This document shows positions 5,596 through 63,230 of a DNA stretch of 64,000 bases, in pieces. The notes beneath the pieces were generated by a model that was not told the DNA's origin, did not search any database, and saw only the letters and a program-made list of their open reading frames with translations. Position numbers and translations under genes: made by a program. Origin of the DNA: Gammaproteobacteria bacterium (lineage in GTDB: Bacteria; Pseudomonadota; Gammaproteobacteria; SG8-11); assembly GCA_024641505.1 (NCBI GenBank), contig JAHECY010000005.1, positions 11,502 to 75,501 on the forward strand, in the 5' to 3' direction. Every line of letters starts with the position of its first letter. Within the stretch, counting starts at the first letter, position 1.

Positions 5596-5934
5596 TTATT
5601 TGCCCAGAGACAGTACGAATTCAACCAGACCTTCGATGTCGGCATCAGCTACACGGGGGGAGTAGGGAGGCATTGGCACTTCGCCCCATACGCCTTTACC
5701 ACCGGCTTTAACTTTGGCTACCAAGCGGGCTTTTTCGTCTTTGCCTTTGTACTTGTTACCAACGTCCTGCCAAGCAGGACCAACAACTTTCTTTTCGATG
5801 CTGTGGCAAGCCAAGCAACCGCTTTTCTTGGCCAGTTCCAGTGCCGCAGCTTGATCCATGGCTGCATTAGCCTGGCCAGCCATCATCATAACCGCTGCTG
5901 CGGGAACTGCGATCCAACGTAATTTCATTTTCAA
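5596..5934 (-). CDS. Class I monoheme cytochrome c (c551/c552-like)
   Basis: Signal peptide, CLACH heme motif, VVGPAW, and distal Met in GVWGEVPMPP. Confidence 0.93.
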   Translation of the reverse strand: MKMKLRWIAVPAAAVMMMAGQANAAMDQAAALELAKKSGCLACHSIEKKVVGPAWQDVGNKYKGKDEKARLVAKVKAGGKGVWGEVPMPPYSPRVADADIEGLVEFVLSLGK

Positions 5935-6248
5935 TCCTCCGTCATTTTTACAAAACTACCGCTCCCTTGTATTAGCACCTGAGGTAAACGGCTTGCTCTA
6001 CAATCTATAGGAGTTATTTTGGTTCAACCCCCCATCCTGTAATACGCTTAACATAATCCAAGCATGCGCCGCGCACAGGTTGAGGCTTTATGCCACTTAG
6101 ACCGTACCCTGTCAAGGCCATGTAATAAAATTAGCGTAGCGCGAGCTGCATGCGCCGCGACACAAACTCGAAAATTCTCCGCATCAATTGCCGGCAATCA
6201 AATCCTAGCGCTTTGAATTATCGACATTAACAGATCGTAGACTCGATC

Positions 6249-6587
6249 TTACCAGCGCAATAAAACCCAGGACGGCGCTCGGAAACCACGCTCCAATTCA
6301 CTGCGCCGTGACTCCATACGGCCATCCCCATCGGTGTCCAGCAAATAGTAGGGCTTACCCTTGGAGGGCTGAATTTCTATCATGTAAAGCTGGCCTTTGA
6401 TGCGGTATTCCTTAACCACCAGGTTCTGTTCCTCGGTAATAACGATAGCAGGCTCTTCGACAGTCGATGACGGTGCATCGTCAAACAGGGGCGGTTCCGC
6501 CTGCACGGACTCCTGCGCCAGACCCGGGGACATGTACAGCCACACCGGCCCGAGCAGCCCCAGCACCAAACCTTTTATCCATTGCAT
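6249..6587 (-). CDS. DUF2782 domain periplasmic protein
   Basis: Signal peptide; VKEYRIKGQLYMIEIQPSKGKPYYLLDTDGDG...PSWVLLRW; divergent from polA as is typical. Start moved from 6848 to ATG 6587. Confidence 0.8.
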   Translation of the reverse strand: MQWIKGLVLGLLGPVWLYMSPGLAQESVQAEPPLFDDAPSSTVEEPAIVITEEQNLVVKEYRIKGQLYMIEIQPSKGKPYYLLDTDGDGRMESRRSELERGFRAPSWVLLRW

Positions 6588-58971: not shown

Positions 58972-59916
58972 ATGAGCACATCCGACAAAAAGGCCCAACG
59001 GGGCCAGGACAAAGTGGCACGGATTCCGGTAAAAGTGGAACCCACACAAGTACCGCTGCGCAAACCCAAATGGATAAGGGCCAAAGCCGCTAACAGCCAG
59101 CAAGTAGCGCGACTAAAATCCGTGCTGCGTGAACACCATCTGCACACGGTGTGCGAGGAAGCCTCCTGCCCTAATCTGGGAGAATGCTTCAGTCATGGCA
59201 CCGCCACCTTCATGATCATGGGCCATATTTGCACCCGGCGTTGTCCGTTCTGCGACGTGGCCCATGGCAAACCCGATCCTCTGGACCCGGAGGAACCACG
59301 CAACCTCGGGCGCACCATCGCCGCCATGGCGCTGCACTACGTGGTCATTACCTCCGTGGATCGGGACGATTTGCGCGACGGCGGCGCCGAGCATTTCGCC
59401 GCCTGTATTCGCGAAGTGCGTAGTCAGGTGCCGGGTATCAACATCGAAATCCTGGTGCCGGATTTCCGCGGCCGGGTCGAGCGGGCGCTGGAAATGCTGG
59501 CCATGGCACCGCCCGATGTTTTTAATCACAACCTGGAAACCGTGCCCCGCCTTTACAAACAAGCGCGGCCCGGTGCCGATTACCAGGGCTCCTTGCAACT
59601 GTTGCAAGCGTTCAAATCGCAACACCCGGCACTGCCCACGAAATCGGGCTTGATGGTGGGGATCGGCGAGACGCGCGAGGAGATTCTGCAGGTGATGGCG
59701 GACTTGCGCGCCCATGGCTGCGATATGCTGACCATTGGTCAATACCTGCAGCCCAGCAAATTTCATTTGCCGGTAGTACGCTACCTGGAGCCCGCGGAGT
59801 TTGAGGCCTTCGCCGCCGACGCCAAAGCCATGGGCTTTGACAAGGTCGCCAGCGGACCCATGGTGCGTTCCTCGTATCACGCGGATTTGCAGGCGGCGGG
59901 CGCCAGCGTCAGTTGA
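58972..59916 (+). CDS. lipA: Lipoyl synthase
   Basis: [20 protein letters not shown] and RSSYHA. Confidence 0.99.
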
Positions 59917-60014
59917 ATCATTGCCAAGGGAAAGCATGGTATGACTGGCGCGGCGCAGACGCGGTCGAAGTTAAAGCCGGTCATTGATTAGAGATATACT
60001 GTACAGGTATCGTA

Positions 60015-60290
60015 TTGACCAAGATAATACCAAGATTGTTATTCTTGATAAAAATAGTTCTGATCCTGGTCGGCGCACTGATGTTGGTAGGCGGTGGCGT
60101 CTGTGTGGCCTCCAATGCCGTGTTCACTTTCTCGAGTCTGCGCGACAATGGTGAATATTCAATTTATTTGGCACTCATGGGAATATCTGCCGTAATATCA
60201 GTCATCGGCTGGTGGTTGACCAAGGTTTCGCGCCGGATTGACACTACAGCGACTGCCGCCGTACAACAACAAGCAAGACACGATGAGTGA
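60015..60290 (+). CDS. Small two-TM membrane protein with LMLVGGGVC motif (Cys30)
   Basis: TTG start, basic N-region, TM1 ending in GGGVC, second TM; stop overlaps the next GTG start. Confidence 0.65.
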   Translation: MTKIIPRLLFLIKIVLILVGALMLVGGGVCVASNAVFTFSSLRDNGEYSIYLALMGISAVISVIGWWLTKVSRRIDTTATAAVQQQARHDE

Positions 60291-60982
60291 GAAGGGGACG
60301 TATGCGGGATCAACTGCAGTGGTTAGCTCTGGTGGCCGGTTTTTGCGCGCTGGTTGCCGGTTCACTCGGCTGTGCCACCATGCTGGTTTCAGATGCCACC
60401 GATACCCACGACTACACCCCGACGCCGGTTCTGACTGACGAGATAATTGCCATTGGCCAGCCCGACGCATCACTTTCGAAGAAACTCGGCCAACCCGACG
60501 TCATCGCCTTTATCGGCAAGAAGAACACCTATATGCTTTACCAGGGCGGCAAGGAATTAGCGGCAATCGCCGGGCTGCAGCTCGACGGCAGGCACATGAA
60601 TATCGACGCGGACTCCAGCCGGAATCTCTTTATCAAGGACCAGAAGGTATGGGGTCAATTGGTGCTGCAATACGGGGAAGACATGGAAGTTTCCACCGAC
60701 GAACGAGCCAAGCTGAAGGATGCCGGCTTCACGCAAATTGACCAAACCGAAGTTTACAGCAGGACGGTTGATATCGAAGGCGTCGTTTACCCCGCCATTT
60801 CGCTGACCGATGCCCAAATGGAAAAATTGACAACTCAACGTAAAATCAGTCTCTATGACCCCAACGACAACAGCCCGCCGCTTAACCTGAGTAAACTTCT
60901 GCTGATACCGGCCATTGCCGTGGATATTGTCCTGACACCGGTTTATCTTTTTGCCGGTTTGGTTATTCTTGTCTCCAATTAA
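60287..60982 (+). CDS. YidX-like lipoprotein
   Basis: Signal ending GSLGC; DEIIAIGQP...IAFIGKKNTYML; C-terminal hydrophobic LLIPAIAVDIVLTPVYL recalls E. coli YidX; start may be ATG 60302. Confidence 0.6.
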   Translation: MRRGRMRDQLQWLALVAGFCALVAGSLGCATMLVSDATDTHDYTPTPVLTDEIIAIGQPDASLSKKLGQPDVIAFIGKKNTYMLYQGGKELAAIAGLQLDGRHMNIDADSSRNLFIKDQKVWGQLVLQYGEDMEVSTDERAKLKDAGFTQIDQTEVYSRTVDIEGVVYPAISLTDAQMEKLTTQRKISLYDPNDNSPPLNLSKLLLIPAIAVDIVLTPVYLFAGLVILVSN

Positions 60983-60996
60983 TCGCCGCCCAAATC

Positions 60997-61749
60997 ATGT
61001 TTCCTCTCACCCTGCACCCCCACCTGATGCATGCGTTGTTTGAAATAGCCGCGGTGTCAAGCGGGGCATACTATTATCGCTACATCATGCGCCGCAACGG
61101 TATATCAACACAGGCACTGCTCAACGGCGGTCGGTTTGCCGTGGTGATTGGATGTATCTTCGGCGCGGCTATCGGCAACAAGGCGATGTTCTGGCTCGAG
61201 ATGCCGCAGCTGTTCCCACAGTTCTGGAACCAACCCGAGGTGTGGCTTGCCGGGCAGTCCATGGTAGGGGGCCTGCTGGGTGGTCTGATAGGAGTGGAGC
61301 TGGCAAAGAAATTTTCGGGGGTGACAAGCTCGACCGGGGACGCATTCGTGTTTCCCATATTGCTTGGACTGATCATCGGCCGTTTCGGCTGCTTCGTCGC
61401 TGGCCTGGATGATGGCACCTATGGCTTGCCAACCACCTTACCCTGGGGCGTCGATTTTGGTGACGGCATTGCGCGGCATCCCACCCAATTGTATGAAATC
61501 GTATTTGCCGGCGCACTCTGGCTGGGATTGCATTACACTCAACGGCATTTTTTGCTGCGGCAGGGTCTGTTATTTAAGCTCATGCTCGGCAGCTACTTAT
61601 TCTGGCGCCTGTTGGTGGATGCGCTCAAACCCAATCCTTTCGATTATGGTCTCGGCTTATCGGGCATCCAGATCATCTGTATTGTCGCGTTGTTCATCTA
61701 CCTGCCATACGCCTATTTCCAAATACAAAGACGCAGTATCGAAGCATGA
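60997..61749 (+). CDS. Prolipoprotein diacylglyceryl transferase (Lgt) paralogue
   Basis: GQSMVGGLLGG, GRFGCF, PWGVDFGDGIARHPTQLYE and WRLLVDALK; multiple TM helices. Confidence 0.85.
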   Translation: MFPLTLHPHLMHALFEIAAVSSGAYYYRYIMRRNGISTQALLNGGRFAVVIGCIFGAAIGNKAMFWLEMPQLFPQFWNQPEVWLAGQSMVGGLLGGLIGVELAKKFSGVTSSTGDAFVFPILLGLIIGRFGCFVAGLDDGTYGLPTTLPWGVDFGDGIARHPTQLYEIVFAGALWLGLHYTQRHFLLRQGLLFKLMLGSYLFWRLLVDALKPNPFDYGLGLSGIQIICIVALFIYLPYAYFQIQRRSIEA

Positions 61750-63230
61750 GCAGAAAAATTCGTCCGTGGCTGTTTTACGACACGACAGCCTCGGTATGTG
61801 CGAGTTGTCGACGCCAGGTAGAGGCTAAAATCGTCATCAAGGGCGACCAGGTGTTCCTGGAGAAATGGTGTCCCGCGCATGGGTTCGAGCGTACATTGAT
61901 ATGTGACGACGCCGAGTACTACCGACTGTGCCGCGAGGTGTATGTAAAACACCCCGAAATGCCCAGGCAGTTCAACACTCAGATGGTGCATGGCTGTCCC
62001 TACGACTGCGGTCTGTGCCCGGACCATATGCAACACTCCTGTTTGTCCATCATCGAAATTACCGACAATTGCAATTTGACTTGTCCGGTATGCTTCGCGG
62101 AGTCCGCACCACATCTGCGGCATCGACCGTTGCCTGATGTGATCGCGATGCTTGACGCGGTGGTGGCAAACGAAGGGGAAGCCGATGTGGTCCAGATATC
62201 CGGCGGTGAACCGACGCTGCACCCGGATTTTTTCGCCATTCTGGATGCCGCCAAAAGGCGGCCTATTCGGCACCTGATGGTGAACACCAACGGGCTGAAA
62301 ATCGCCACCGACCCGGACTTTGCCGACAAACTCGCCCAATATGCACCCGGGCTGGAGATCTATCTTCAATTCGATTCATTACGCGACGACACCCTCAAAC
62401 TCATTCGCGGCGCCACCCTGGCTGACAGTCATCAACGCGTGCTGGATCGCCTGGAATCAAGATCTATTTCCACGACCCTGGTGATGACGGTGATTTCCGG
62501 CATCAACGATGACCAGATCGGCGAGGTGATACAGCATGCGACAAAATGGCGATGCGTCAGGGGTGTAACCTTGCAGCCGGTGAGCGCAGTGGGACGGTTA
62601 ACGCTGGAACACCCGACTGAGCGCCTGACCGTAAGCGCAATACGTCGCATGGTCGCCGATCAATCACGGATTTTCACCAAGGAGGATGTGGTCCCGGTGC
62701 CGTGTAATCCCGACACCTTGGCGATGGCCTATGCGCTGAAGCATAATGACGCGATCATACCCCTGACCCGCCACCTGGGGTCGGAGGCATTACTTGCCGG
62801 TCCACGGAATACCATCGTATTTGAACGCGACCCCGCGTTGAAAGAACAGGTATTCAAGCTTTTTGCCACCAATCATTCACCGCAGTCCCAGGCGGCTTGC
62901 CTTGCCGAATTACTGTGTTGCCTGCCAGCAGTCGCCGCACCTGATCTTGGTTACGAAAACGTGTTCCGGGTATTGATCGTACAGTTAATGGATATTCACA
63001 ACCTGGATTTGCGCGCGCTGAAAAAATCCTGTATTCATTTCGCGCTACCCGATGGCAGATTAATCCCGTTTGAATCCTACAATCTGTTTTATCGAGGCAG
63101 ACTTTTCGCGCAAACAAGGAAAATCCAGGCGGAAATTGCCAAGCATACTCAAGATCGAGCCAAGACCGGGTCGGAAACGGTGTCATCAAGTGACCTTGTT
63201 CAAACAGACTCGCTGCATATTACAAATTAA
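61746..63230 (+). CDS. Radical SAM protein, Tes/GDGT-MAS (MJ0619)-like family
   Basis: C18xxC21...C42xxH45, C84PYDC88GLC91PDH94, C109NLTC113PVC116, ISGGEPT, LMVNTNG, IYLQFD and KKSCIH...DGRLIPFESYN; ATGA overlap with the Lgt paralogue. Confidence 0.85.
   Translation: MSRKIRPWLFYDTTASVCASCRRQVEAKIVIKGDQVFLEKWCPAHGFERTLICDDAEYYRLCREVYVKHPEMPRQFNTQMVHGCPYDCGLCPDHMQHSCLSIIEITDNCNLTCPVCFAESAPHLRHRPLPDVIAMLDAVVANEGEADVVQISGGEPTLHPDFFAILDAAKRRPIRHLMVNTNGLKIATDPDFADKLAQYAPGLEIYLQFDSLRDDTLKLIRGATLADSHQRVLDRLESRSISTTLVMTVISGINDDQIGEVIQHATKWRCVRGVTLQPVSAVGRLTLEHPTERLTVSAIRRMVADQSRIFTKEDVVPVPCNPDTLAMAYALKHNDAIIPLTRHLGSEALLAGPRNTIVFERDPALKEQVFKLFATNHSPQSQAACLAELLCCLPAVAAPDLGYENVFRVLIVQLMDIHNLDLRALKKSCIHFALPDGRLIPFESYNLFYRGRLFAQTRKIQAEIAKHTQDRAKTGSETVSSSDLVQTDSLHITN

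What the first reader, a model, noticed from the sequence alone, without database searches (positions are those of the whole stretch)
60015..60290. 91-aa hairpin membrane protein with a non-canonical lipobox-like Cys
It has signal-peptide-like layout (K3, R7, K13, then a hydrophobic helix) ending in G-G-G-V-C30, followed by a short loop and a second TM helix. The -3..-1 residues (G-G-V) do not fit the standard L-A/S-G/A-C lipobox, so the housekeeping Lgt/LspA should handle it poorly. That would explain a dedicated transferase. It contains only one Cys.
Basis: partly seen in the sequence, partly recalled or inferred. Interest (0 to 1): 0.6.

Follow-up and report, generated by a model that had tools for sequence, protein, structure and literature searches.

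The report
Conserved single-cysteine microprotein beside Lgt paralogue
The 91-residue open frame is a real gene for a two-helix membrane microprotein whose one cysteine is kept in every relative and which almost always sits next to an extra copy of the lipoprotein-lipidating enzyme Lgt and a lipid-tail-welding radical enzyme, so it is probably the protein target of an undescribed lipid modification.

Summary
Observation confirmed. ORF 60015-60290 (+, TTG start) encodes the 91-aa protein as described: K3, R7, K13, GGGVC30, a second helix and a single Cys.

It is a real gene and belongs to an unnamed family with no Pfam or NCBIfam hit.
- Of 80 loci fetched through the neighbouring Lgt paralogue, 74 carry one to three copies. 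All 109 hits lie on the enzyme's strand and next to it.
- A profile search of 1.84 billion proteins gave 606 members.
- All 218 members examined keep the Cys in a G-[G/F]-G-x-C-G motif. In 88% it lies exactly 17 residues after the last K/R.
- Charge distribution puts the Cys at the periplasmic leaflet, where Lgt-type active sites face.
- dN/dS is mostly 0.13-0.5 for close pairs.
- In about 800 sampled genomes, every strong hit sat directly upstream of the Lgt paralogue and a Tes-like radical SAM gene.
- Two Bacteroidota loci carry the same Cys helix in a different architecture.

The motif fails the canonical lipobox at -3 and -1. The paralogue keeps the lipid-donor residues of Lgt but has lost H103, the proposed lipobox-binding His.

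No lipidation evidence exists, and an accessory-subunit role remains open. I found no published description. The scan has flagged this module before, on this window and in other genomes.

The parts
60015..60290 (+). Gene for the 91-aa two-helix membrane microprotein: TTG start, invariant Cys30 in G-G-G-V-C, K13 exactly 17 residues before the Cys.
60090..60116 (+). Codons for G26-N34, the family signature G-[G/F]-G-x-C-[G/V]-x-x-[G/N]. Cys30 is the TGT at 60102-60104.
   Evidence: Column counts: C in all 218 members, G at -2 in 197 of 215, G at -4 in 170 of 215.
60302..60982 (+). Accessory 226-aa lipoprotein-like protein (p231 family). Probable ATG start at 60302 after an AAGGGG Shine-Dalgarno-like site, G-rich lipobox VAGSLGC and a C-terminal membrane helix. 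Present in only about 10 of 80 loci.
   Evidence: no Pfam or NCBIfam family.
60997..61749 (+). Lgt paralogue (PF01790, 81.5 bits), far below the NCBIfam Lgt equivalog cut-offs. R143, R239, Y235 and HPxQLYE equivalents are kept; H103 is V, N146 is an invariant Cys (C132), and E243 is D.
61746..63230 (+). Tes/GDGT-MAS-family radical SAM enzyme with the N-terminal Zn ribbon (PF23545). It scores below the cut-offs of both NCBIfam TrsS and Tes. ATGA overlap with the Lgt paralogue.

Best explanation
The ORF encodes a bona fide inner-membrane hairpin microprotein. It is the third core component of a sporadically distributed, apparently horizontally moving module: Cys-microprotein, Lgt paralogue and Tes-like radical SAM enzyme.

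Shown:
- The gene is conserved and under purifying selection.
- It is co-oriented and usually start/stop-overlapped with the Lgt paralogue.
- Its only strongly conserved features are a basic residue at the cytoplasmic end of the Cys helix, a glycine-rich G-[G/F]-G-x-C-G motif, an invariant Cys a fixed 17 residues (16-17 in two Bacteroidota forms) after that basic residue, and a basic cluster after helix 2.

Inferred:
- N-in/C-in topology, from the positive-inside rule, places the Cys in the periplasmic leaflet, where the active site of Lgt-type enzymes faces.
- The Lgt paralogue keeps the phosphatidylglycerol-activating residues but has a changed acceptor-binding site. It transfers a diacylglyceryl (or related lipid) group to this thiol.
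- Because -1 is bulky, signal peptidase II does not cleave, and the product stays a lipid-bearing hairpin.
- The Tes-like enzyme works on the lipid tails from the cytoplasmic side, either on the donor lipid beforehand or on the attached lipid afterwards.
For: Association:
- All 109 profile hits among 7295 six-frame ORFs of 80 Lgt-paralogue loci lie on the enzyme's strand. They end 0-50 nt before it, or sit before the p231 gene, or lie between the paralogue and the radical SAM gene.
- 74 of 80 loci have a copy, and 2 of the 6 misses are cut off upstream.
- Reverse test from the microprotein side: in four of four proteins looked up on contigs over 10 kb (P0273, P0276, P0278, P0280) the order is microprotein, LGT, Zn_ribbon_HMPTM/Radical_SAM, with overlapping stops and starts in three of the four.
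- In 401 sampled Pseudomonadota genomes the Lgt-paralogue subfamily occurs in 3, which are exactly the 3 with the best microprotein hits, and the genes are adjacent. A fourth case came from a class-level sample.

Cys and geometry:
- Cys is present in all 218 distinct members. The K/R-to-Cys distance is 17 in 190 of 215 and 20 in 16.
- Mean K+R is 1.8 in the N-terminus, 0.5 in the loop and 4.2 in the C-terminus.
- Chondrinema and Persicobacter (Bacteroidota) have Lgt-like, radical SAM, then a 59-64-aa hairpin whose last helix ends K-x15/16-G-[A/T]-G-[V/I]-C-G. The motif and depth are the same in another architecture.

Substrate-like behaviour:
- One to three tandem paralogues per single enzyme gene, a variable position in the operon, and conservation confined to the Cys helix.
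- Other proteins encoded in the module also carry N-terminal helices ending in G-rich Cys motifs: AGS[L/F/M]GC and GGTGC in Sel1-repeat proteins.

Enzyme:
- R143, R239 and Y235 equivalents are kept, and H103 of the HGGL motif is replaced by V.
- In E. coli Lgt, HGGL is the proposed lipobox-binding site and the active site faces the periplasm (PMC4728403).
- A separate housekeeping Lgt scoring 266.7 bits exists in the same genome.
Against: - There is no direct evidence of any covalent modification, of translation or of binding.
- H103 substitutions inactivate E. coli Lgt (PMC4728403), so the paralogue may not be a diacylglyceryl transferase at all.
- G(-4), C(0) and G(+4) lie on one helix face like a glycine zipper. 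Together with near-universal presence and translational coupling, this fits a tightly packed accessory subunit equally well.
- AlphaFold2 keeps the Cys inside helix 1, 13 residues before the turn.
- Two of seven family members looked up lie next to no Lgt paralogue on the DNA held. P0136 lies between an MFS transporter and a 1326-aa BcrAD_BadFG/DUF2229 protein, and P0125 lies after a PF01553 acyltransferase on a 1.4-kb contig. A third, P0143, sits on a 1.1-kb contig that ends right after the gene and shows nothing either way.
- Four loci with full flanks have no copy.
- The more distant cassette in G030 has a different upstream membrane protein without the motif.
Confidence: 0.48

Rival explanations
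1. The microprotein is a non-substrate accessory subunit of a membrane complex with the Lgt paralogue and/or the radical SAM enzyme. Its glycine-zipper Cys helix packs against the enzyme. The Cys then serves in catalysis, thiol relay or metal binding, or is simply a small residue at the interface, and the true substrate is a membrane lipid or other lipoproteins.
For: The microprotein is present in about 95% of loci and often has 4-nt start/stop overlaps with the enzyme gene. G at -4, -2, +1 and +4 around the Cys gives a small-residue helix face. The paralogue itself has three invariant Cys, C53, C132 and C228, with C132 in the active-site motif GRxGCF, which could pair with the microprotein thiol. 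H103 is essential in E. coli Lgt and is absent here.
Against: There are one to three paralogous copies per single enzyme gene. Position in the operon varies, and in Bacteroidota the Cys helix is last instead of first. Helix 2 is weakly conserved. Some loci lack the microprotein but have other Cys-motif proteins.
Confidence: 0.25
2. The microprotein is a membrane-embedded precursor that the radical SAM enzyme modifies directly, for example by a C-S or C-C link between the peptide and a lipid tail. The Lgt paralogue supplies or positions the lipid.
For: Several precursor-like copies per locus and conservation focused on one residue. I recalled, but did not look up here, that Tes chemistry is described as passing through a carbon-sulfur intermediate on an auxiliary cluster; the review read says only that the C-C coupling depends on an auxiliary [Fe4S4] cluster.
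Against: The enzyme belongs to the lipid-tail-coupling Tes/GDGT-MAS family, not to peptide-maturase families; the best NCBIfam hits are TrsS and Tes. It has no signal peptide or membrane helices that I saw, so it should be cytoplasmic. The Cys is predicted at the periplasmic leaflet.
Confidence: 0.12
3. It is an ordinary lipoprotein precursor or small membrane protein handled by the housekeeping Lgt/LspA pathway, or by none, and it merely travels with the module.
For: It has an n-region, an h-region and a Cys 17 residues after the last basic residue. From memory, this is within the range of normal lipoprotein signal peptides (E. coli Lpp, 16). The family member P0136, and P0125 on a 1.4-kb contig, have no Lgt paralogue beside them on the DNA held.
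Against: The motif fails the lipobox [LVI][ASTVI][GAS]C at -3 and, in about 88% of members, at -1 (consensus as quoted in PMC4728403). Linkage to the paralogue is very tight in both directions.
Confidence: 0.05
4. It is not a gene: a chance open frame in the AT-richer leader of the cassette.
For: TTG start, a weak Shine-Dalgarno site (AGG, 7 nt upstream) and no convincing promoter or terminator call. No hit in the word-indexed search with the single sequence.
Against: Syntenic homologues in 74 of 80 loci, 606 family members, dN/dS mostly well below 1, and gene callers in public sources call it a hypothetical protein.
Confidence: 0.01

Closest known systems
Bacterial prolipoprotein signal peptides with a lipobox, the substrates of Lgt (phosphatidylglycerol:prolipoprotein diacylglyceryl transferase, PF01790; E. 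coli Lgt, PDB 5AZB/5AZC)
   Same: Basic n-region, a hydrophobic helix of about 16 residues, then an invariant Cys predicted at the periplasmic leaflet. The gene lies next to an Lgt-family enzyme that keeps R143, R239 and Y235.
   Different: The motif is G-[G/F]-G-[L/V/I/A/F]-C instead of [LVI][ASTVI][GAS]C. A second membrane helix follows, so the protein is probably an uncleaved hairpin. The partner enzyme is a divergent paralogue (H103 to V, N146 to Cys), not the housekeeping Lgt. Lipidation has not been shown.
Tes / GDGT-MAS tetraether lipid synthase systems of archaea (NCBIfam NF045702; PMC8941075, PMC9433317) and their uncharacterised bacterial 'Tes homologs'
   Same: The module's radical SAM enzyme belongs to this family (Zn_ribbon_HMPTM plus Radical_SAM; 266.7 bits to the Tes model). 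Bacterial homologues in Proteobacteria were noted in PMC8941075.
   Different: Archaeal Tes acts on free membrane lipids and, as far as those papers say, has no Lgt-like or Cys-microprotein partner. 'Lgt' and 'diacylglyceryl' do not occur in PMC8941075 or in the 2026 review PMC13459092.
MYXO-CTERM and similar Cys-containing sorting tags (myxosortase; PMC11980579)
   Same: An invariant Cys in a Gly-rich motif next to a membrane helix and a basic cluster. A lipid attachment by an 'Lgt-like' acyltransferase is proposed but unidentified.
   Different: Those tags are C-terminal with the opposite orientation (motif, helix, basic tail). They sit on large secreted proteins and are cleaved by an intramembrane protease. 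None of that applies here.
Small hairpin accessory subunits of membrane enzymes (general class)
   Same: Size of 70-100 aa, two helices, glycine-rich packing face, and translational coupling to a membrane enzyme gene.
   Different: Such subunits are normally single-copy and lack a single invariant Cys at a fixed membrane depth. Here one to three paralogues occur per locus.

Membership tests
Canonical bacterial lipoprotein precursor (lipobox [LVI](-3)[ASTVI](-2)[GAS](-1)C; consensus as quoted in PMC4728403) | Positively charged n-region followed by a hydrophobic h-region | tested here: met
   K3, R7 and K13, then I14-V29. K/R at the family position in 102 of 108 and 147 of 150 sequences.
Canonical bacterial lipoprotein precursor (lipobox [LVI](-3)[ASTVI](-2)[GAS](-1)C; consensus as quoted in PMC4728403) | Invariant Cys at +1 | tested here: met
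   C30. Cys is present in all 218 distinct members.
Canonical bacterial lipoprotein precursor (lipobox [LVI](-3)[ASTVI](-2)[GAS](-1)C; consensus as quoted in PMC4728403) | L/V/I at -3 | tested here: not met
   G27 in the window. Across the family -3 is F in 93, G in 82, L in 7 and I in 5 of 215.
Canonical bacterial lipoprotein precursor (lipobox [LVI](-3)[ASTVI](-2)[GAS](-1)C; consensus as quoted in PMC4728403) | Small residue (G/A/S) at -1, needed for signal peptidase II cleavage | tested here: not met
   V29 in the window. Across the family -1 is L in 89, V in 33, I in 31, F in 21 and A in only 25 of 215.
Canonical bacterial lipoprotein precursor (lipobox [LVI](-3)[ASTVI](-2)[GAS](-1)C; consensus as quoted in PMC4728403) | S-diacylglyceryl modification of the Cys and cleavage before it | not testable with these tools
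   Needs labelling or mass spectrometry.
Cys-microprotein family of the Lgt-paralogue/Tes-like radical SAM module (unnamed; defined here by alignment A2) | 65-110 aa, two membrane helices, signature [K/R]-x12-G-[G/F]-G-x-C-[G/V]-x-x-G | tested here: met
   The window protein seeded the family. It scores 1.4e-16 against the profile in the genome search and is 47% identical to the L008 orthologue.
Cys-microprotein family of the Lgt-paralogue/Tes-like radical SAM module (unnamed; defined here by alignment A2) | Encoded on the same strand next to a divergent PF01790 gene and a Zn_ribbon_HMPTM/Radical_SAM gene | tested here: met
   Window order is 60015-60290, 60302-60982, 60997-61749, 61746-63230. 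The same holds in 74 of 80 loci and in the reverse look-ups.
Any Pfam-A or NCBIfam family | Score above the curated cut-off | tested here: not met
   Only sub-threshold chance hits to membrane families, best 15.8 bits against a cut-off of 26.6. Family members in public sources are 'hypothetical protein' with no Pfam domain.

The most novel reading that the evidence does not exclude
[quoted passage not shown] The Tes-like radical SAM enzyme then welds the tails of that lipid to a lipid of the inner leaflet or to each other. The result would be a protein-anchored membrane-spanning or macrocyclic lipid, a 'proteolipid rivet', a class of protein-lipid conjugate not known in any organism. It would also give the unexplained bacterial Tes homologues a function.
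Probability: 0.12. Interest if true: 0.92.

Novelty: new variant of a known kind. Interest (0 to 1): 0.7.

Why it matters
Lipoprotein lipidation by Lgt is regarded as a single, essential housekeeping pathway with one lipobox rule. This study finds a conserved extra Lgt that always travels with a Tes-like lipid-tail-coupling enzyme and a microprotein. That microprotein's one invariant cysteine sits at a fixed membrane depth in a non-lipobox motif. Together these point to a second, specialised protein-lipid chemistry in bacteria.

The work gives a concrete candidate acceptor residue (Cys30) for the module. It also turns the open question 'what do bacterial Tes homologues do?' into a direct experiment: mass of one 9-10 kDa protein with and without two enzymes. 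Cultured carriers are available for that experiment (Collimonas, Massilia, Dechloromonas, Azoarcus, Zoogloea). In addition it defines a protein family that Pfam and NCBIfam lack.

Tried and rejected
- The word-indexed homologue search with the single 91-aa sequence found nothing. That was a sensitivity limit, not absence, as the profile searches later showed. The same index with the profile gave only 11 hits.
- A search of 40 relatives found no true homologue. The two weak hits lie inside long unrelated frames, and the module is missing from the same-genus genome, which is 79% complete.
- Complex prediction (Lgt-paralogue alignment plus microprotein alignment) was busy four times. It then returned 'no answer', score 0.00. 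This is neither support nor evidence against binding.
- The look-up of sequencing runs and the protein-atlas search were closed, so no expression data and no Atlas look-alikes were obtained.
- The promoter/terminator scan gave nothing above shuffled expectation.
- Weak profile hits in genus g45 (for example L100) proved to be a Cys-less two-helix protein without the module, and were rejected as members.
- Apparent fusions of the microprotein to the Lgt paralogue (long ORFs in L025, L026, L028) are out-of-frame over-extended ORFs in GC-rich DNA, not fusions (frame arithmetic).
- The ORF downstream of family member P0125 is not related to the BcrAD/DUF2229 protein next to P0136.
- Literature searches for an Lgt paralogue with a radical SAM partner found no description.

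Full report
**The observation**

The frame 60015-60290 (+) is open from TTG 60015 to TGA 60288-60290. It encodes 91 residues with K3, R7 and K13, a hydrophobic stretch, G26-G27-G28-V29-C30, a polar turn around R43-E47, a second hydrophobic helix and a basic/polar tail. C30 is the only cysteine. The frame opens only at 59988, and TTG is the sole canonical start that keeps the conserved N-terminal part. The next start (ATG, M23) would delete K13 and half of helix 1. The Shine-Dalgarno site is weak (AGG, 7 nt upstream). AlphaFold2 with the family alignment predicts a helical hairpin, H4-42 and H48-89, with mean pLDDT 76.8. The description is therefore accurate.

**Surroundings**

Upstream lies a housekeeping cell-wall/lipoate cluster that ends with lipB and lipA (lipA 58972-59916). 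Four co-oriented genes follow:
- the microprotein;
- a 226-aa lipoprotein-like protein with a C-terminal helix (probable ATG 60302, lipobox-like VAGSLGC, no family);
- a divergent Lgt (PF01790, 81.5 bits, far under the NCBIfam Lgt equivalog cut-offs);
- a radical SAM enzyme with the Zn_ribbon_HMPTM domain. Its best NCBIfam matches are TrsS (312.8 bits, cut-off 490) and the tetraether lipid synthase Tes (266.7 bits, cut-off 450).

A convergent DsbD_2 gene follows. GC falls from about 0.60 to 0.47 across 59900-60200. In the same-genus genome G001, lipA is 82% identical, but similarity stops at the lipA stop codon and none of the four genes is present. Among 40 relatives only G030 has a related radical SAM/Lgt-like pair. 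The block is thus sporadic and probably acquired. The genome has a separate housekeeping Lgt (266.7 bits to PF01790) on another contig.

**Is it a gene, and is the Cys conserved?**

The single sequence found nothing in the word-indexed library. I therefore took the close homologues of the Lgt paralogue (60-73% identity), aligned them (A1) and fetched 80 loci from species genomes. A radical SAM homologue lies downstream in 79 of 80; the one exception, L025, is cut by the contig end.

A jackhmmer search seeded with the window protein was run against all 7295 six-frame ORFs of these loci and the window. It gave 109 hits in 74 loci. All are on the strand of the Lgt paralogue. They end 0-50 nt before the paralogue, or sit before the p231 gene, or lie between the paralogue and the radical SAM gene. 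No hit fell on the opposite strand or elsewhere in the window. Of the six loci without a hit, two are truncated upstream and four truly lack a profile match.

In the alignment, the column of C30 is Cys in 94 of 108 rows, and 12 more rows have the Cys three residues later (GGGLxxLCG variants). Only three copies lack it, and each is an extra paralogue in a locus that also has a Cys-bearing copy.

A cleaned 76-sequence alignment (A2) was searched as a profile against 1.84 billion cluster representatives. It gave 606 proteins at E <= 1e-3 and 54 at E <= 1e-10. All but three of the best 150 are 65-123 aa (the three are 134-191 aa), and all 150 have the motif Cys.

Across 218 distinct members:
- the last K/R before the helix lies exactly 17 residues before the Cys in 190 of 215, and 20 residues before it in 16;
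- the signature is G(-4, 170 of 215) - F/G(-3) - G(-2, 197 of 215) - L/V/I/A/F(-1) - C - G/V(+1) - x - x - G(+4).

dN/dS between close species pairs is mostly 0.13-0.5. Public sources call members 'hypothetical protein' with no Pfam domain.

**Linkage tested in both directions**
- In 401 Pseudomonadota genomes the Lgt-paralogue subfamily (A1, E <= 1e-40) occurs in three: G000, G289 and G352. These are exactly the three with the best microprotein matches, and the genes are adjacent.
- A class-level sample added G578, again ordered microprotein, Lgt paralogue, radical SAM.
- Starting from the microprotein, four of four members looked up on contigs over 10 kb show microprotein, LGT, Zn_ribbon_HMPTM/Radical_SAM, with overlapping stop/start in three.
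- Exceptions exist. P0136, a clear member (K13, C30), lies between an Aas-like acyltransferase/AMP-binding protein, an MFS transporter and a 1326-aa BcrAD_BadFG/DUF2229 protein. P0125 follows a PF01553 acyltransferase on a 1.4-kb contig. A seventh member looked up, P0143, sits on a 1.1-kb contig that ends right after the gene and shows nothing either way.
- A Cys-less two-helix look-alike in another genus has no module and was rejected as a member.

**Geometry**

Basic residues are enriched in the N-terminus (mean 1.8 K+R against 0.4 D+E) and in the C-terminal tail (4.2). They are depleted in the loop (0.5 against 1.1 D+E). By the positive-inside rule this gives an N-in/C-in hairpin with the Cys in the periplasmic half of helix 1.

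Two Bacteroidota replicons were found with the Lgt paralogue as query. They carry Lgt-like, then radical SAM, then a 59-64-aa hairpin in which the Cys helix is the last one. It follows a very basic loop and ends K-x16-G-A-G-V-C-G-S-F-F (Chondrinema) or K-x15-G-T-G-I-C-G-S-L-L-S (Persicobacter). Motif, spacing and predicted side of the membrane are the same although the architecture and gene order differ. The conserved unit is therefore the Cys helix itself.

**What the enzyme next door suggests**

I aligned the paralogue to E. coli Lgt (5AZB).
- Kept: R143, R239 and Y235, the pocket that activates the glycerol C3-O bond of phosphatidylglycerol according to PMC4728403, and the HPxQLYE motif.
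- Changed: E243 is Asp. H103 of the HGGL motif is Val. N146 is an invariant Cys (GRxGCF).

PMC4728403 proposes that the lipobox peptide binds at HGGL and that the active site faces the periplasm. 'Donor site kept, acceptor site changed' fits a transferase with a different acceptor motif. However, H103 substitutions inactivate E. coli Lgt, so a different chemistry cannot be excluded.

**Other candidate acceptors**

The module often encodes further lipoprotein-like proteins with glycine-rich Cys motifs that also miss the canonical -3 L/V/I:
- the p231 family ([I/V]AGS[L/F/M]GCAT; the window and about 10 loci);
- Sel1-repeat proteins (LIGGTGCIT, IVGLGC, IIGWGC).

At -3 the residue is G or S in 20 of 28, and at -4 it is G in 17 of 28. 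Two of the four loci without a microprotein (L077, L081) have such a Sel1-like protein directly after the Lgt paralogue. L033 has a 37-codon frame ending ...IGSASCAALILLN directly upstream of the paralogue.

**Weighing the readings**

Points that favour an acceptor or substrate:
- one invariant residue at a fixed depth on the correct side of the membrane;
- conservation confined to that helix;
- one to three paralogues per enzyme gene;
- movable position and architecture;
- companion proteins with related motifs;
- the altered acceptor site in the enzyme.

Points that favour a packed accessory subunit:
- the G/C/G small-residue face;
- near-universal presence;
- translational coupling;
- three invariant Cys in the paralogue.

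A direct radical SAM substrate is less likely, because that enzyme belongs to a lipid-tail-coupling family and should be cytoplasmic, while the Cys is predicted on the periplasmic side. The complex prediction gave no verdict. I put the lipid-acceptor reading at about 0.48, the subunit reading at 0.25, a radical SAM substrate at 0.12, an ordinary lipoprotein or passenger at 0.05, and 'not a gene' at 0.01.

**Comparison with what is known, and novelty**

The protein resembles a lipoprotein signal peptide in layout, but it fails the lipobox at -3 and -1 and is followed by a second helix. It should not be filed as a canonical lipoprotein.

The papers on Tes mention bacterial homologues, including Proteobacteria, without a function and without any Lgt-like or microprotein partner. 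The 2026 review of lipid-modifying radical SAM enzymes likewise mentions neither Lgt nor lipoproteins. Searches for Lgt paralogues with radical SAM partners found nothing. Within the library searched, the family and the module are undescribed.

The scan itself has noted this module before: on this window (e1-5097490, e1-5097486) and, by its notes, in at least 76 other genomes. I used those notes as leads. I independently tested the parts that concern the microprotein. I did not test their claims of enzyme fusions, or of spread to more than ten phyla, beyond the two Bacteroidota loci.

**Verdict**

This is a new protein family that is the most likely acceptor, and otherwise a core subunit, of an undescribed Lgt-paralogue/Tes-like lipid modification module.

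Noticed in passing
window 60302-60982; L008-L014, L033, L066; L040:5716-6546, L025:6200-6865, L028:5955-6620, L077 about 5730-6406: Larger proteins encoded inside the module (the p231 family and Sel1-repeat proteins) carry glycine-rich lipobox-like motifs: AGS[L/F/M]GC, GGTGC, VGLGC, GWGC. At -3 the residue is G or S instead of L/V/I in 20 of 28. They may be further clients of the Lgt paralogue.
   Followed up: partly
L126:5546-5740 (Chondrinema litorale plasmid NZ_CP111057.1) and L127:5092-5271 (Persicobacter psychrovividus pPP1 NZ_AP025293.1): In Bacteroidota the module order is Lgt-like, radical SAM, then a 59-64-aa hairpin. Its C-terminal helix carries the same G-x-G-x-C-G motif 16-17 residues after a basic loop, and the protein ends 4-5 residues after the Cys.
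   Followed up: partly
L092:4001-4258 (GCA_009668885.1 SBEJ01000067.1) and L090:618-908: Clear family members occur outside the Lgt/radical SAM context. One overlaps the start of a 1326-aa BcrAD_BadFG/DUF2229 protein and follows an MFS transporter and an Aas-like acyltransferase/AMP-binding protein. The other follows a PF01553 acyltransferase. These neighbours also belong to families that act on glycerolipids.
   Followed up: partly
window 60997-61749: The Lgt paralogue subfamily has three invariant cysteines (C53, C132, C228). C132 replaces N146 of the E. coli signature GRLGNF, and H103 is replaced by Val.
   Followed up: partly
L033:2703-2825: Directly upstream of the Lgt paralogue lies only a 37-codon frame, MKTYYQRLVSFLIDLGLLLLFIILIGSASCAALILLN. 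It could be a one-helix version or a remnant of the microprotein; the profile did not match it significantly.
   Followed up: no
L112-L115 (metagenome contigs), downstream of the radical SAM gene: In one clade the three-gene module is followed by DoxX (PF07681), DUF6265 and a glyoxalase-family gene. In the window a convergent DsbD_2 gene abuts the module. Both DoxX and DsbD_2 are thiol-related membrane proteins.
   Followed up: no
L007:8647-9051 (-) in G030: The more distant cassette of G030 (radical SAM 49% identical) has a 134-aa three-helix membrane protein upstream instead. It lacks the motif in helix 1 and has FGSC in its last helix. Homology to the family is not significant.
   Followed up: partly
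window 59917-60014 against G001 (L122): Synteny with the same-genus genome ends exactly at the lipA stop codon. Everything from the microprotein to at least the DsbD_2 gene is absent there within 6 kb.
   Followed up: partly
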